64,000 nucleotides of DNA from Paramecium tetraurelia. Taxonomy: Eukaryota. The translations under genes were made by a program, and so were the position numbers. Below, in pieces: positions 25,839-30,684 of this stretch. The DNA lies in contig CT868208.1 of the NCBI GenBank assembly GCA_000165425.1, forward strand, positions 310,001 to 374,000, read 5' to 3'. Within the stretch, counting starts at the first letter, position 1; each line of letters begins with the position of its first letter. The notes beneath the pieces were generated by a model. It searched no databases. It was not told the origin of the DNA and saw only the letters and a program-made list of their open reading frames with translations.

Positions 25839-27512
25839 TCAATCTATAGAATTATGCAATAACTAATTAACTTTGATTCTTTAACCTGAATAGTTTTGTT
25901 ATAAATTTAGATAGAACATACTATCTCTAGGGGCTATTTATTTATTTAAATTACTTTTATTGTATTTTAATTAAGGTATGAGCGAGAAAGGAGGGTCATC
26001 AATCTTATGAACGGAGGAACTTCTATACATTCTTTTCAACTACCTGATTATTGGTTTAGGAGTATGAAAATTCTATAATATATTATTCTATAAAGTTAAT
26101 TCTTATCTAGAACCACTGCCTAATTAATTGTTGGATTGCAATTATTATGCAGCCAATCCTAAAGAAAATTGTTATTAAACCATAATTTGAGAAGTATTCG
26201 GCCTGATTTATTGTGATTTTGTTTATTCTGATTTTCTATCCATTTATCTTGTTTTTGTTTAACGCAAAGCATTTTGTTGTTATTTTGAGGAATTCTATTA
26301 TTAAACTAGCATTTTTTGTTAACTTTTTTAAAGTAAAATATATGGGTCAAAAGTTGAATCCATATGATTCATAGAATTTGAATTATTTAATTGGCTTTGA
26401 TCTTGTCGTTTCTTAACCTTAAGATGTTTTTATCTGAAGTATTATTAAATGAATGTAGGCATTTTTTTATAAGATAGGTTTCCTAATAGAGCTCCAAACT
26501 GATCATCATTAGTTTAGCTTTGTTAATCCTGGCAGGCAGAAGGTTGTTTAGAAAGAACTTTGAAGGATATGGTTTTTTTTATATCCTAATTGAGCATTTA
26601 ATCCTTATTTGTATTTTACCAATTCTTTTCCAATTCATTGCATTTTTATTTATAAATTTCATCCCTTATAATAGTTCTATCTTTAAACATTTTACAGACT
26701 GATTGAAAAACTTAGGGAGATACATTTTTAAGTTGTTGTATTGATATCATTAAAAGAGATGCAGTCTTTGATATCACTTAAACGTTGTAAAGTGCTTTTT
26801 CTTATTAGGTGAATTCTTCTCCTAAAATGCCTTGATCATTTAATTCACATATAACAATTTCATTAAACCAAAATTTTCTGGGTAACACTTATTTTTCATA
26901 ATGAGAAAGTGCCTTCTAATAGTTTTTGCTTAAACTCAGAACTCCATATTGTAATATAAATAACGCATTTCCAGGTTCATCCATTTTCTAGATGAAGTCT
27001 GTATGCGCAAATTTGACTTCCTAGAAAAGTCGTATTAATTGTTCTTATATTTTAGGAGCAATTTTTTCTACTATAGGTAGATTGGCTATTAGTGATTTTT
27101 TCTTTTATTAATACAAAACGCCATGACTGGAGCTAAACTTTTTGTATAAATCAATTGGTAATGCAAAGCAATGAGTATCTTACTAATTTGAATATGAATA
27201 AAAAGAATACTTTAACTTCAAATCCTAAATCTCCTTCATACCACATTTCAGGTTGAATTTAGATGTTGTCTTCTGTTTAGAGCAATCCCTTAATTACATA
27301 GAATGCAAATTTATTATTTTGTTAGACTACTTGACCAGTTTCAAAATAAACATATCCTATGGTTTTGCACAACTATATTTCAGATTTATAAGTACGTCTT
27401 TTAAGACTTCATAAGGAGCTTGAAACTAAGGTAATTGACTCAGATGATCTTGAATAGCTGAGATGTCTTCCTGAGATTTGTTTAATTTAGTCAATTTTGG
27501 AATTAAATGCAT
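25839..27512 (-). CDS. Protein with two degenerate cyclic-nucleotide-binding (cNMP) domains and Q-rich tail
   Basis: KSQEDISAIQDHLSQLPQF lead-in helix; DFIQKMDEPGNALFILQYGVL..GILGEE beta-roll pattern. Confidence 0.7.
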
Positions 27513-27525
27513 AATAATATATATT

Positions 27526-30459
27526 TCATGGCAATCTAACAACCTAATCTGAATAAAGGATATATGGTAGAATAGACTCAGCCTTAATGTGATTTCCATT
27601 ATTCAAAACAATCTGCAATCTCACAAACATTTCTTTTCCATCAAAAGGGAGTTCAGGGAAATACGCATAATTAGATCTCACATTTCCAATCCATTATTTA
27701 TCACTATATTGTAATACATGTAAAAATACTTAAAAATTCTGATAGTTTTAAGGAGTGGTCCCAATTCTCCTAGGTCCAATTAAATATATAAATCATAAAG
27801 ATTTGTGATGCTTTCTTTTAACTAGATATTCTTGATGTATTTGGTTGGGTCTTTGAAATCTACATTGGCAGCCTTCATTTGCTCTGTGTATCTGTCATCA
27901 TAGATAGCTAGACCTCCAATAAGCCCATCGACTGCTTGTTATTATTAAGAAATGTTTTCAATCTTAAGGTACACGGATTTCAAGGTTTTTCCTTGATTTA
28001 AAATTGTGTATTATGAAATATCCCAACCCTTATTTGCTAATATTTTGGTTGGCTTGAATGTTTACAATCCCTTGTCTGCAAATTTAAAAACCAAACTTAA
28101 CTAAAAAATCTTTTTATCAAAGTTTTTCATGTTAATGCTTGCATTGATATTACCTTGAGGGTCAATCCTAGTTTTAAATAATTTAATGAGAAAACTTTTA
28201 TGAACTTATAAATCTCCTTTAATTTTGATGCAACTACTTCCATTCCATGAATCGCTAAAATTGATATTACTTTCCCAATTATCTTGAATGTCTTGGCTGA
28301 TAATCTTTTTTGTTGGATAGCATAAAGAATAATCAAAATCATTCAAATTATCGTAGTATCCCTTATAATGTGTATTCTTTTGACCATCAATATAATAGGC
28401 CTCTCCAACAGCATTATTGAAATAAGATTGCAAAGGGAATTCTTAATATGTCTTTGGTTTTATCATTCTCAATAGATCCTTGTAATAGTCATAACTTATG
28501 TAAACCATAGATTCCCCAGTAAATTGAGTACCATAATTACCAGCCCAATATTCCACGTCTTTTCCAGCCTCTATAAATTTTATATATTCTGTATCATCAG
28601 TAGTTTTGATACTCAAAGTATGTTCTCTCCATTTATCGTCAGCAACATTAACATGATCTGCATTAAACTGAATTTCTCCCTTGTTTACCTTAGTCGAAAA
28701 TGAATCGATGCTAGCAATACATCTGTTTTGTCTATCATATAACTCAATACCAATAAGCTAATCAATTAACACTACTAATTACATATAAATCCTCAAATTT
28801 TGGACCAGTTCCCTTTACTTTTGCATTGAATTGAATAATACCTCCTTTGTTTTAAGATACCAAATTCAATTACACCGTATACGTTCTGATGCACCAATCA
28901 AAGGATGCTATTGCAGTCTCCTCTCCATTATCTTGTACGATTTTCCATCCTTATCCCCCATTGAATGTGATAGCCCATTAATTTTTATGTTTATCAAACA
29001 AGGAAACTGTATTCTTCCCTTGCCATAATGAATTATCATTCTGAATAAACTATGATCTACTATCATTTGAAGTTTCATATGTCCAAGCTTAACCAAAAAT
29101 TGCTGTGGCTAATTATGCTCTTTTTATCTCTTACAATGCGATATAACTATCGAATTATCCACCTCCATACTGTCCCCTGCCCCATATGTCAATTCCTACG
29201 AAAACATTATTCCTCTAATTTCCAGCATTCTTCCCTGTATTTGCCAATTTATTCAAATTCCAATGATAATCACTAAAAAAGTAATTACAAGCTTAGAAGT
29301 ATTTCATATTATCCTAATTCAATTCAGATTGCCATTTCAAAACTCCCTCAGCATTATGACTATCATAATACATCAACAGGGCTCCTATCTATTATAATTT
29401 ATCACTCAATTATTTGATGAATTGTAGAAACAAGTCCACATTATCCACATTTGTTTCGATATTTAATAAATAACCATCAAATTTATAGAACTAACAAATC
29501 TACACTAGTTTATCCACATATTTTAAGTCCAATATTTATTTAGTCAAAGTATTATCATCTCCTTCTGTTATGATAGTTCCTAATATCTTTGTACCAAATT
29601 GATGACAAATGTTAATGTAGGGCACACTTGGAATGGTGATAAAAGTATGTGAAAAATATACAAAAATGTCACAATGGGTCATGTAATAAAAGCGATAACT
29701 ATTTTATCTCAAAGGATTTCCAAAACACCAAATATCTTCCTTATAGCCTCCTTACATATCATGACACACCAACAGAGGTTAATTGTTTGTTCTTGTAATT
29801 TTCTTTAGTGGCTAAATTGGAAGTATTGTGTATTCTTCATTGGGTTTCCAATTATCCAGCTCTTCTATTGATTTCAATGGTTTGCTAAATGGCAATTTAT
29901 ATTTTATCTATCCAATATCATTCAAGTCATTAAGAATAGATTTCTACAATTTGATTTCACCATCTATTTACATTTTTAAATCGGCTTCTTTCACAAATCT
30001 TATCTATAAATTTCTTGTAATCCCAGTGAAAGCATTCTAATTATTTTTACTTCCTAATAATATTCCCACTTTATTGGATGTATAAGTAAATTTTTATTGA
30101 AGATTTTAACTTTAAACATTTGAGTTTGTGATCAAATTTATCTGATTGTGGAATGATATAAATATTGGATACAACTTGTATAAAATGATTTATTAAATCG
30201 GAAATTTGTAAGTACCATCCAAATATTGAATTACAAGCTCTGTTTATTTTAATGTTATTTTTATCAAAGGTTTTCCAAGGTTATCTTGAATATCAATTAG
30301 TTCAATATTATTTTACTCTTATTCTGCTAAAATTAATTAAAATTAAACTATCCCAACTTCGGATGGAGTAAGCTATGTTATATTAAAACGAATATGTTCA
30401 GGCACTAATTATAATTGCCCATCCCTTTTGAGTCCTGAATTAAAAAAATAATTGCTCAT
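27526..30459 (-). CDS. ENGASE: Cytosolic endo-beta-N-acetylglucosaminidase (GH85) with inserted FBA-type lectin domain
   Basis: LVCHDMQGGY, DIFVYFSH, catalytic FDGYLLNIE, YDS, KWQSELN, VGIDIWGRG..GGG and AIFGQAWTYE are GH85 motifs; insert NGGQGW..WC..GKDVEYWAGNYG. Confidence 0.92.
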
Positions 30460-30684
30460 AATTTTTCAATTAATTTTATTGTGAAAAAATTAATAATAAT
30501 GCTTAAATATAATATTGAGGATAATTTGTGTACATTCATACATATTCTATAACACAAATTCTAAGTCTGCCAAGAATAATATATGAAATATTGGATACCT
30601 AGCAATTTATGTAAACAACCTTTGTAATTAACTAAGAAATTAATTTTTATCATTTAATTAAATTAAAGATAAATAGATTATTTT

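What the first reader, a model, noticed from the sequence alone, without database searches (positions are those of the whole stretch)
28490..28990. ENGase with an FBA (Fbs1-type) N-glycan-binding domain inserted after the catalytic barrel
Seen: right after the GH85 barrel end (AIFGQAWTYE) the frame reads WAITFNGGQGWKIV..ASFDWCIR..GKDVEYWAGNYG. It then resumes the usual ENGase continuation (FPLQSYFNNAVGEAYYIDG..WNGSSCI). Established: NGGxGW..WC..GKDxxxWAGxYG are hallmarks of the F-box-associated sugar-binding domain of FBXO2/FBXO6, which binds the chitobiose core of high-mannose N-glycans, the same structure ENGase cleaves. Inference: a lectin-enzyme fusion that joins glycoprotein recognition to deglycosylation in ERAD/free-glycan turnover. 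Animal ENGases lack this insert.
Basis: partly seen in the sequence, partly recalled or inferred. Interest (0 to 1): 0.78.

Follow-up and report, generated by a model that had tools for sequence, protein, structure and literature searches.

The report
ENGase carrying an Fbs1-type lectin domain
This Paramecium gene encodes a sugar-chain-trimming enzyme (ENGase) that has, built into its middle, the same kind of N-glycan-recognising domain that animals use in separate ubiquitin-ligase proteins, an arrangement shared by several distant protists but missing from the animal and plant enzymes examined.

Summary
Window 27526-30459 (minus strand, ciliate code) holds a three-exon, 960-aa gene. It is identical to a Paramecium tetraurelia protein record and is transcribed and spliced in frame.

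The protein has a GH85 ENGase barrel with the catalytic N333/E335/Y365 intact. About 160 residues follow (window 28485-28983) that animal and plant ENGases lack. The usual ENGase beta-domains come after that.

The same GH85+FBA architecture occurs in Blepharisma, Naegleria, Balamuthia, Rhizamoeba, Copromyxa and Diphylleia, so it is an old protist form of ENGase. Ten literature searches found no description of it.

Glycan binding by the insert is inferred, not shown. The Y279 position varies within the family. I rate it a new variant of a known kind, of moderate interest.

The parts
27526..30459 (-). Whole coding region of the ENGase gene (960 aa, ciliate code 6, TGA stop at 27526-27528)
   Evidence: ORFs and translations. 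Exon lengths 1677+1028+178 = 2883 nt = 960 codons + stop, the same length as the P. pentaurelia and P. octaurelia orthologues. Stranded oligo-dT RNA reads cover 27507-30502.
28783..30459 (-). Exon 1 (residues 1-559): N-terminal domain, GH85 barrel, first third of the FBA domain
   Evidence: 559/559 identical to the P. tetraurelia record P0281.
28758..28782 (-). Intron 1, 25 nt, GTA...TAG, lying inside the FBA domain
   Evidence: Read from the sequence. 16 RNA reads (3+9+4 in three runs) run from 28757 straight into the letters of 28783 onward (loose ends). Public protein records join ...FEDLY|LIGIELY....
27730..28757 (-). Exon 2 (residues 560-902): rest of the FBA domain and the post-insert ENGase beta-domain
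   Evidence: 342/342 identical to P0281.
27704..27729 (-). Intron 2, 26 nt, GTA...TAG
   Evidence: sequence. 16 RNA reads (3+6+7) run from 27703 into the letters of 27730 onward. The orthologues continue ...TIRIFNDKQWIGN....
27526..27703 (-). Exon 3 (residues 902-960 and the stop)
   Evidence: translation, which matches the C-terminus of P0003.
29011..29787 (-). GH85 catalytic (beta/alpha)8 barrel, residues ~225-483
   Evidence: Pfam Glyco_hydro_85 E 9e-73, 245.8 bits. phmmer against Endo-A 3fha_A E 2.1e-13, residues 237-483.
29455..29463 (-). Catalytic N333-I-E335 (LLNIET)
   Evidence: Aligned to Endo-A N171/E173. Invariant in 26 of 26 aligned ENGases. The roles of these residues are recalled, not tested.
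29365..29367 (-). Y365, equivalent of Endo-A Y205
   Evidence: alignment. Invariant.
28485..28983 (-). FBA (Fbs1-type) beta-sandwich insert, residues ~493-650 (contains intron 1)
28900..28902 (-). F520 (SFDWC), equivalent of Fbs1 F177
   Evidence: Alignment, with numbering worked out from chains 1umh and 2e31. F/Y/H in 18 of 18 family inserts. Invariant in 10 of 10 Paramecium copies.
28545..28550 (-). Y629-W630 (GKDVEYWAGNYG), equivalents of Fbs1 Y279-W280
   Evidence: alignment. W in 18 of 18 and Y in only 6 of 18 family inserts. Y/L/H among Paramecium copies.
27529..28457 (-). Post-insert ENGase beta-domains, residues ~660-960 (contains intron 2)
   Evidence: Motifs shared with animal and plant ENGases after the insert (F672, G677, G684, G732, W804, G840 in P0003 numbering). 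Pfam Ig_ENGASE1_C not detected.
29890..30459 (-). N-terminal ~190-residue domain of uncertain kind (possibly ConA/LamG-like)
   Evidence: No Pfam hit. Atlas lead Laminin_G_3, score 0.92. Pfam Laminin_G_3 at the N-terminus of family members P0163 and P0210. hhalign between the Paramecium N-termini and the others gives no support.

Best explanation
This is the Paramecium tetraurelia cytosolic endo-beta-N-acetylglucosaminidase (GH85). It is a single expressed polypeptide in which an FBA-fold lectin module, homologous to the sugar-binding domain of Fbs1/FBXO2, is inserted in the linker between the catalytic barrel and the usual C-terminal beta-domains.

Proposed mechanism (inferred): the FBA module acts like an appended carbohydrate-binding module. 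Its loop tip carries F520, Y629 and W630 and would bind the Man3GlcNAc2/chitobiose core of high-mannose N-glycans. In Fbs1's substrates that core is exposed mainly on unfolded glycoproteins. Binding would hold cytosolic misfolded glycoproteins or free oligosaccharides next to the GH85 site, which cuts the GlcNAc-GlcNAc bond. One glycan core cannot occupy the lectin pocket and the active site at once. The module would therefore work through a second glycan on the same substrate (avidity) or by capture and hand-over.

Shown: the gene model, expression and splicing; GH85 identity with intact catalytic residues; FBA homology and fold; the insertion point; conservation among Paramecium copies; and the occurrence of the same architecture in distant protists. 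Inferred: glycan binding, its specificity, and the role in ERAD or free-glycan turnover.
For: Gene and expression: exons are 100% identical to record P0281. Stranded oligo-dT RNA reads from three runs (846, 1461 and 1413 reads laid, all in one orientation) cover the gene. Depth is 17.9-76.7 across the FBA-coding bins, and reads bridge both introns.

ENGase: Pfam GH85 245.8 bits. N333/E335/Y365 align to Endo-A N171/E173/Y205 and are invariant in 26 of 26 sequences.

Binding residues: the F177 equivalent is aromatic or His in 18 of 18 inserts, and the W280 equivalent is W in 18 of 18. Their role in Fbs1 is taken from PMC4603797 (passage).

Selection: the insert is 87-96% identical among 9 Paramecium orthologues and ohnologues, against 91-98% for the barrel and 78-96% for the N-terminus.

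Context: elsewhere FBA modules sit next to carbohydrate-active or lectin domains (NAGPA phosphodiester glycosidase, Ricin_B, SUEL and C-type lectins, AbfB), as carbohydrate-binding modules do. There is no signal peptide-like hydrophobic N-terminus (sequence).
Against: The window's own insert is below Pfam's FBA threshold (18.1-21.8 bits against 32.4). Alone it hits FBXO2 only at E 0.0024.

The Y279 equivalent, reported as essential in Fbs1, is Y in only 6 of 18 family inserts. It varies Y/L/H among Paramecium copies. The K281 equivalent is K in 1 of 18.

FBG3/FBXO44 keeps the three residues yet does not bind glycans (PMC4603797), so residue conservation does not prove binding.

Paramecium has an extra loop of ~15-17 residues inside the sandwich.

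The model was made from the P. pentaurelia orthologue, not from the window's own sequence. The Atlas feature search on the insert returned no FBA cluster (best score 0.82). No binding or activity data exist. The geometry between the lectin pocket and the active site could not be modelled.
Confidence: 0.6

Rival explanations
1. The insert is a real FBA-fold domain that no longer binds, or never bound, the N-glycan core. It would serve as a structural spacer, a regulatory domain, or a module for another ligand (a different glycan or a protein), as FBG3/FBXO44 does among the F-box proteins.
For: The Y279 equivalent is not conserved (Y in 6 of 18; Y/L/H in Paramecium). The K281 equivalent is lost (K in 1 of 18). 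There is a Paramecium-specific loop insertion. The Pfam score is sub-threshold. FBG3 retains the residues without sugar binding (PMC4603797). FBA modules occur in many bacterial surface proteins of unknown ligand.
Against: The W280 equivalent is invariant, and the F177 position is always aromatic or His, across very distant taxa. The domain is as conserved as the catalytic barrel among Paramecium copies. It has stayed fused to a chitobiose-cleaving enzyme in ciliates, Amoebozoa, Heterolobosea and Diphylleia.
Confidence: 0.3
2. The FBA module binds the same chitobiose core as the active site and so acts mainly as a brake or gate. It would sequester glycans, or restrict the enzyme to multi-glycosylated unfolded substrates, rather than simply enhancing catalysis.
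For: This rests on logic only. Fbs1 contacts GlcNAc-GlcNAc (PMC4603797), and GH85 cleaves that very bond, so both sites compete for one epitope. In mammals unrestrained ENGase action on glycoproteins is harmful when NGLY1 is missing (PMC8997433, passages).
Against: No data bear on it. Appended binding modules in glycosidases usually raise activity on complex substrates (general knowledge, recalled).
Confidence: 0.08
3. Artefact: the segment is an unspliced intron, belongs to another gene, or the motifs are a chance resemblance.
For: The GenBank model of this very locus is mis-merged with the neighbouring gene (P0281, 1487 aa), so annotation here is imperfect.
Confidence: 0.01

Closest known systems
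Cytosolic ENGase / GH85 (animal ENGASE, plant ENGase85A/B; solved bacterial Endo-A, PDB 3FHA/2VTF)
   Same: GH85 barrel with the N-x-E and Tyr catalytic residues. The same conserved motifs occur in the beta-domain that follows (F.T.F..G.G, W804, G840). No signal peptide, so presumably cytosolic.
   Different: An FBA domain of about 160 residues is inserted between the barrel and the beta-domains. There is an N-terminal extension of ~190 residues. Pfam's Ig_ENGASE1_C model is not detected at the C-terminus. In the GH85 tree, the FBA-less animal and plant enzymes form one supported clan (95/93), apart from the FBA-bearing ones.
Sugar-binding domain of Fbs1/FBXO2, Fbs2/FBXO6 and FBG3/FBXO44 (Pfam FBA PF04300; PDB 1UMH, 1UMI, 2E33, 8ZUH, 3WSO)
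   Different: There is no F-box and no SCF context: the domain is internal to a hydrolase. It has an extra 15-17-residue loop. It carries a GTGP..D motif that is invariant in the ENGase-linked set. The Y279 position is variable and K281 is lost. In the FBA-domain tree the GH85-linked domains cluster apart from the F-box clan.
Mammalian PNGase (NGLY1) with its C-terminal mannose-binding PAW domain
   Same: The logic is the same: a cytosolic deglycosylating enzyme carrying its own glycan-recognition module (recalled from the literature, not checked here).
   Different: A different enzyme (amidase, transglutaminase fold) and a different lectin family. The lectin is C-terminal, not inserted.
Bacterial multidomain proteins with FBA modules (T9SS-secreted, NAGPA phosphodiester glycosidase + FBA, AbfB + FBA)
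   Same: FBA is used as an accessory module next to carbohydrate-active or lectin domains.
   Different: They are secreted or surface proteins, often with tandem FBA repeats and other catalytic partners. They form a separate clan in the FBA tree (SH-aLRT 91).

Membership tests
GH85 endo-beta-N-acetylglucosaminidase | Match to Pfam Glyco_hydro_85 above its gathering score | tested here: met
   245.8 bits against a cut-off of 22.2, E 9e-73, residues 251-508. The same holds for P0281.
GH85 endo-beta-N-acetylglucosaminidase | Catalytic Asn-x-Glu and the conserved Tyr (Endo-A N171, E173, Y205; roles recalled) | tested here: met
   N333, E335 and Y365 align to these residues of 3fha_A. They are invariant in 26 of 26 aligned sequences.
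GH85 endo-beta-N-acetylglucosaminidase | Hydrolysis of the chitobiose core of N-glycans | not testable with these tools
   Needs an enzyme assay.
FBA / Fbs1-type sugar-binding domain (PF04300) | Window's own sequence reaches Pfam's FBA gathering score | tested here: not met
   18.1 bits (exon 2 alone) and 19.8 bits (P0281). Orthologues score 19.7-21.8 bits over profile positions 19/20-173 of 175. The cut-off is 32.4. This is a detection threshold, not a structural feature.
FBA / Fbs1-type sugar-binding domain (PF04300) | Statistically supported sequence homology to solved FBA domains | tested here: met
   A profile of 5 homologous inserts hits 1umh at 6e-20, 8zuh at 6e-16 and 3wso at 2e-14. 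Homologous inserts in 10 GH85 proteins pass Pfam FBA at 39.7-94 bits. The single sequence gives only E 0.0024.
FBA / Fbs1-type sugar-binding domain (PF04300) | Antiparallel beta-sandwich fold of the Fbs1 sugar-binding domain | tested here: met
FBA / Fbs1-type sugar-binding domain (PF04300) | Chitobiose-contacting residues F177, Y279, W280 of Fbs1 | tested here: met
   In the window these are F520, Y629 and W630 (alignment). Across the family F/Y/H is present in 18 of 18, W in 18 of 18, and Y in only 6 of 18.
FBA / Fbs1-type sugar-binding domain (PF04300) | Binding of the Man3GlcNAc2/chitobiose core | not testable with these tools
   Needs a binding assay. FBG3 shows that the residues alone do not guarantee binding (PMC4603797).
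Sugar-recognising F-box proteins (SCF-Fbs: FBXO2/6/27) | F-box domain N-terminal to the FBA domain | tested here: not met
   No F-box or F-box-like Pfam match in P0001, P0002, P0003, P0004 or P0281 at E up to 0.01-1. It shares the lectin domain only and is not a member of this protein family.

The most novel reading that the evidence does not exclude
The FBA lectin module was already part of the cytosolic ENGase in early eukaryotes, and was lost from the lineage of enzymes that animals and plants keep. The fusion would then be a 'Rosetta stone'. It says that chitobiose-core recognition by FBA domains and ENGase cleavage belong to one ancient pathway for handling cytosolic N-glycoproteins. The stand-alone Fbs F-box lectins of animals could descend from, or have replaced, this built-in module. 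That would give an evolutionary rationale for ENGase and FBS2 both modifying NGLY1 deficiency in mice.
Probability: 0.2. Interest if true: 0.75.

Novelty: new variant of a known kind. Interest (0 to 1): 0.55.

Why it matters
ENGase and the Fbs lectins are both central to how cells deal with N-glycoproteins that reach the cytosol. In mice, loss of either gene rescues NGLY1-null lethality (partially for Engase; PMC8997433, passages read). A natural fusion of the two activities has three consequences.

- It predicts that a lectin of this fold can steer ENGase to substrates.
- It offers a compact, testable model protein for asking how core-glycan recognition and core cleavage are coordinated.
- It extends the FBA domain from 'F-box associated' to an ENGase-associated module present in ciliates, Amoebozoa, Heterolobosea and Diphylleia.

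It may also be useful as a glyco-engineering scaffold, since GH85 enzymes and Fbs1 are both already used as glycan tools. Ten full-text searches found no paper describing the architecture. It is visible in automatic database annotation: Pfam columns, and the UniRef name 'FBA domain-containing protein' for the Naegleria protein.

Tried and rejected
- Own-genome search: no genome is held for this window. Paralogues, PNGase and F-box-FBA genes of the organism could therefore not be looked for.
- Indexed sequencing runs: no RNA holder was listed. Raw-read RNA runs of the same species label were laid instead.
- Read-laying table 5 listed no joints. The two splices appear only as loose ends of 58-nt reads, so the ratio of spliced to unspliced reads is unknown.
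- Word-index homologue searches with the insert alignments gave only 9 hits each and few new names.
- Atlas feature search on the insert: best score 0.82, GH85-named clusters and no FBA cluster. Uninformative.
- N-terminal domain: hhalign of the Paramecium N-termini against those of other family members gave probability 0.13%, and hmmsearch gave 12 bits at best. The LamG-like reading stays a lead.
- The full-length fold (alignment A4) was not accepted. The relative placement of the lectin pocket and the active site is therefore untested.
- Papers: PMC1851568 is not held. Residue numbers were not found in PMC6389600, PMC5457524 or PMC3210139. They were found in PMC4603797.
- Literature searches for the fusion found nothing relevant. 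One search was badly designed and returned only ciliate cell biology.
- Considered and rejected: the insert is the ordinary ENGase domain 2. The conserved domain-2 motifs follow the insert, and FBA-less ENGases align across it with a gap.
- Considered and rejected: recent capture from an animal F-box gene. The GH85-linked FBAs lie outside the F-box clan.
Full report
**Gene model.** The finding lies in a minus-strand gene read with the ciliate code: 51 in-frame TAA/TAG codons are read as Gln, and TGA is the stop.
- The coding region is 28783-30459 (exon 1, 559 aa), 27730-28757 (exon 2) and 27526-27703 (exon 3).
- Two Paramecium-type GTA...TAG introns of 25 nt (28758-28782) and 26 nt (27704-27729) separate the exons.
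- The product is 960 aa, the same length as the P. pentaurelia and P. octaurelia orthologues (90% and 86% identical over exon 1).
- The translations of exons 1 and 2 are 559/559 and 342/342 identical to a P. tetraurelia record (P0281), so the window is that species' locus.
- That public model (1487 aa) runs the ENGase into the next gene, a cyclic-nucleotide-binding protein. The sister species annotate two genes of 960 and about 534 aa.

**Expression.** Three oligo-dT, stranded RNA-seq runs of the same species label were laid on 27400-30600.
- 846, 1461 and 1413 reads were laid, all in one orientation. Depth covers 27507-30502 and is almost nil beyond it.
- The FBA-coding bins (28470-29004) have depth 17.9-76.7, among the highest in the gene.
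- The reads are 58 nt, and the tool listed no 'joints'. However, 16 reads (3+9+4) end at 28757 and continue with the letters that start at 28783. Another 16 (3+6+7) do the same from 27703 to 27730.
- Both introns are therefore removed exactly as modelled, and the insert stays in frame in the mRNA.

**The enzyme.** Exon 1 matches Pfam Glyco_hydro_85 at 245.8 bits (cut-off 22.2). Against PDB sequences the protein hits Arthrobacter Endo-A (3fha_A, E 2.1e-13). N333, E335 and Y365 fall on Endo-A N171, E173 and Y205 (their catalytic roles are recalled, not tested). These positions are invariant in 26 of 26 aligned ENGases. The N-terminus has no hydrophobic signal-like stretch.

**The insert is an insertion.** In an alignment with gar, honeybee, coral and Selaginella ENGases, the Paramecium proteins and three unnamed homologues carry a block of roughly 190 alignment columns that the others lack. 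The block lies between the end of the barrel (...AIFGQAWTYE...LW) and the conserved F.T.F..G.G motif that opens the next ENGase domain. Motifs shared with animal and plant enzymes resume after it (G677, G684, W804, G840). I ran a profile of the insert over the 120 best ENGase homologues listed (335 had E <= 0.001). Only 5 matched (P0003, P0004, P0013, P0025, P0043). The other 115, including every named animal and plant protein, gave nothing at E <= 10.

**The insert is an FBA domain.**
- Pfam's FBA model is below threshold on the window's own sequence: 18.1 bits for exon 2 alone, 19.8 for P0281, and 19.7-21.8 for orthologues over profile positions 19/20-173 of 175. The cut-off is 32.4.
- Alone, the protein hits FBXO2 chain 5b4n_A at E 0.0024.
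- Homologous inserts in more distant ENGases pass clearly: 82 and 72.6 bits in P0025 and P0043, and 39.7-94 bits in ten others.
- A profile of five inserts hits the solved sugar-binding domains of Fbs1/FBXO2 (1umh, E 6e-20), Fbs2/FBXO6 (6e-16) and FBG3/FBXO44 (2e-14). The next sequence is at E 0.21.
- I folded the insert of the P. pentaurelia orthologue with an 18-sequence alignment. The window's own domain is split by the intron, and I did not type a joined sequence. The orthologue's insert is 89% identical to the window's. The model has mean pLDDT 85.2 and pTM 0.80 and is all-beta.
- Foldseek ranks 1-10 against the PDB are all Fbs1, Fbs2 or FBG3 (E 8.5e-10 to 1.6e-8).

**Binding residues.** According to PMC4603797 (passage read), hydrophobic contacts of GlcNAc-GlcNAc with Fbs1 Phe177, Tyr279 and Trp280 are essential. 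The same paper shows that FBG3 keeps the equivalent residues but does not bind sugar, because its loops differ.
- Counting along the alignment, these residues fall on F520 (SFDWC), Y629 and W630 (GKDVEYWAGNYG) of the window's protein.
- Across 18 GH85-linked inserts, the F177 column is F9/H5/Y4, the W280 column is W in 18 of 18, the Y279 column is Y6/H4/G4/N2/L1/R1, and the K281 column is K in only 1 of 18.
- Among ten Paramecium copies (the window's plus nine others), F and W are invariant. The Y position is Y in 4, L in 4 and H in 2.
- The pocket is therefore partly conserved. Binding is plausible but not assured.

**Conservation.** Among nine Paramecium orthologues and ohnologues the insert is 87-96% identical to the window's. 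The figures are 91-98% for the barrel and 78-96% for the N-terminal domain. It is maintained like a functional domain.

**Distribution.** An exhaustive profile search of 1.84 billion cluster representatives found 852 FBA-like proteins at E <= 0.001.
- I scanned 89 of the 150 listed with Pfam; 61 were not scanned. Sixteen carry GH85 next to the FBA-like stretch. Three of these (P0157, P0178, P0184) are fragments or shorter records.
- Source names place them in Diphylleia rotans, Naegleria fowleri (UniRef name 'FBA domain-containing protein'), Balamuthia mandrillaris, Rhizamoeba saxonica and Copromyxa protea.
- Blepharisma stoltei and five Paramecium species complete the named list. Several others are unnamed.
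- The remaining FBA proteins are F-box proteins, bacterial T9SS or surface proteins, and enzymes such as NAGPA phosphodiester glycosidase with tandem FBA repeats.

**Trees.**
- GH85 barrel tree: 36 rows, made of all 18 FBA-bearing sequences I had and 18 of the 115 FBA-less ones, chosen by me for taxonomic spread; 264 columns, with the insert excluded. The presence or absence label needs 2 changes, against 12.3 for shuffled labels. The animal and plant enzymes form one clan (95/93).
- FBA-domain tree: 81 rows, one per protein, quick method. The 20 GH85-linked domains cluster. F-box-type and bacterial-type domains each form a clan (SH-aLRT 94 and 91).
- Holding the 20 together gives a tree 15.98 log-likelihood units better than the free search (p-AU 0.70).
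- One ancient fusion, inherited vertically and absent from the animal/plant type of ENGase, fits these trees. They are unrooted, so gain and loss cannot be told apart, and transfer among protists is not excluded.

**Mechanism.** The most likely reading is that the FBA module works as a built-in carbohydrate-binding module. It would bring N-glycan cores, and hence misfolded cytosolic glycoproteins or free oligosaccharides, to the GH85 site. The lectin pocket and the catalytic site want the same chitobiose, so a single glycan cannot fill both. Avidity on multi-glycan substrates, or capture and hand-over, is therefore implied. A gating role is a minor rival. The main rival is an FBA fold that has lost, or never had, core-glycan binding. 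I put about 0.6 on the targeting-lectin model, 0.3 on a non-core-binding module, under 0.1 on gating, and about 0.01 on artefact.

**Novelty.** Ten full-text searches were run. None found a paper on an ENGase-FBA fusion. The other three were for residue numbers or background. The library lacks most subscription journals, so a description elsewhere cannot be excluded. The architecture can be seen in automatic annotations. In Paramecium, however, the FBA part is below Pfam's threshold and is not named. I class it as a new variant of a known kind. It is a neat and probably ancient domain architecture with a clear, testable prediction. It touches the ENGase/FBS2/NGLY1 axis known from mouse genetics (PMC8997433, passages).

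Noticed in passing
window 25839-30459 (minus strand): The public P. tetraurelia model for this locus (P0281, 1487 aa, named 'cyclic nucleotide-binding domain-containing protein') merges the ENGase with the downstream cNMP-binding gene. Sister species annotate 960-aa and ~534-aa proteins separately. RNA depth drops to about 0-0.5 at 27400-27506, just past the ENGase stop at 27526.
   Followed up: partly
window 29890-30459 (residues 1-190): The N-terminal extension may be a ConA/LamG-like lectin fold. The Atlas feature search points to Laminin_G_3 (score 0.92, a lead only), and two family members (Diphylleia P0163, Balamuthia P0210) have a Pfam Laminin_G_3 hit at the N-terminus. Pfam finds nothing in Paramecium, and hhalign to the other N-termini gives no support. 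If real, the enzyme would carry two lectin-like modules.
   Followed up: partly
window 30075-30288: RNA depth falls to 0-2.7 in all three runs although both flanks have 3.5-15. The stretch is the most AT-rich of the gene (GC 22-23%), but the covered 5' flank is about as AT-rich. The cause is unexplained. It may be technical.
   Followed up: partly
window 28263-28295 and 30357: Small groups of RNA reads match only a short core here and diverge on both sides, with sequence about 75% similar to the window. Minority letters are seen at 28614, 28638, 29275 and other places. These are most simply reads from the expressed ohnologue (P0291-type copy), so both duplicated ENGase genes seem to be transcribed.
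   Followed up: no
residues ~578-594 of the protein (window ~28653-28703): Paramecium FBA inserts carry an extra loop of about 15-17 residues (FSTKVNKGEIQFNADHV) that is absent from the other 16 GH85-linked FBA domains aligned. It is modelled with high confidence (block pLDDT 87-95).
   Followed up: no
proteins P0128, P0137, P0140, P0144, P0302: FBA modules occur as tandem repeats (seven Pfam FBA stretches in the 1506-aa protein P0128, eight by my insert profile). They are also fused to other carbohydrate-active domains in apparently bacterial proteins (NAGPA phosphodiester glycosidase with three FBA copies; AbfB). 'F-box associated' is therefore a narrow name for what looks like a general glycan-binding module.
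   Followed up: no
alignment A3: The GH85-linked FBA domains share a G-T-G-P-x3-D motif (G68, P71 and D75 invariant in 18 of 18). Fbs1 has a different sequence at this place in the alignment. It could mark the ENGase-linked subfamily or a contact with the barrel.
   Followed up: no
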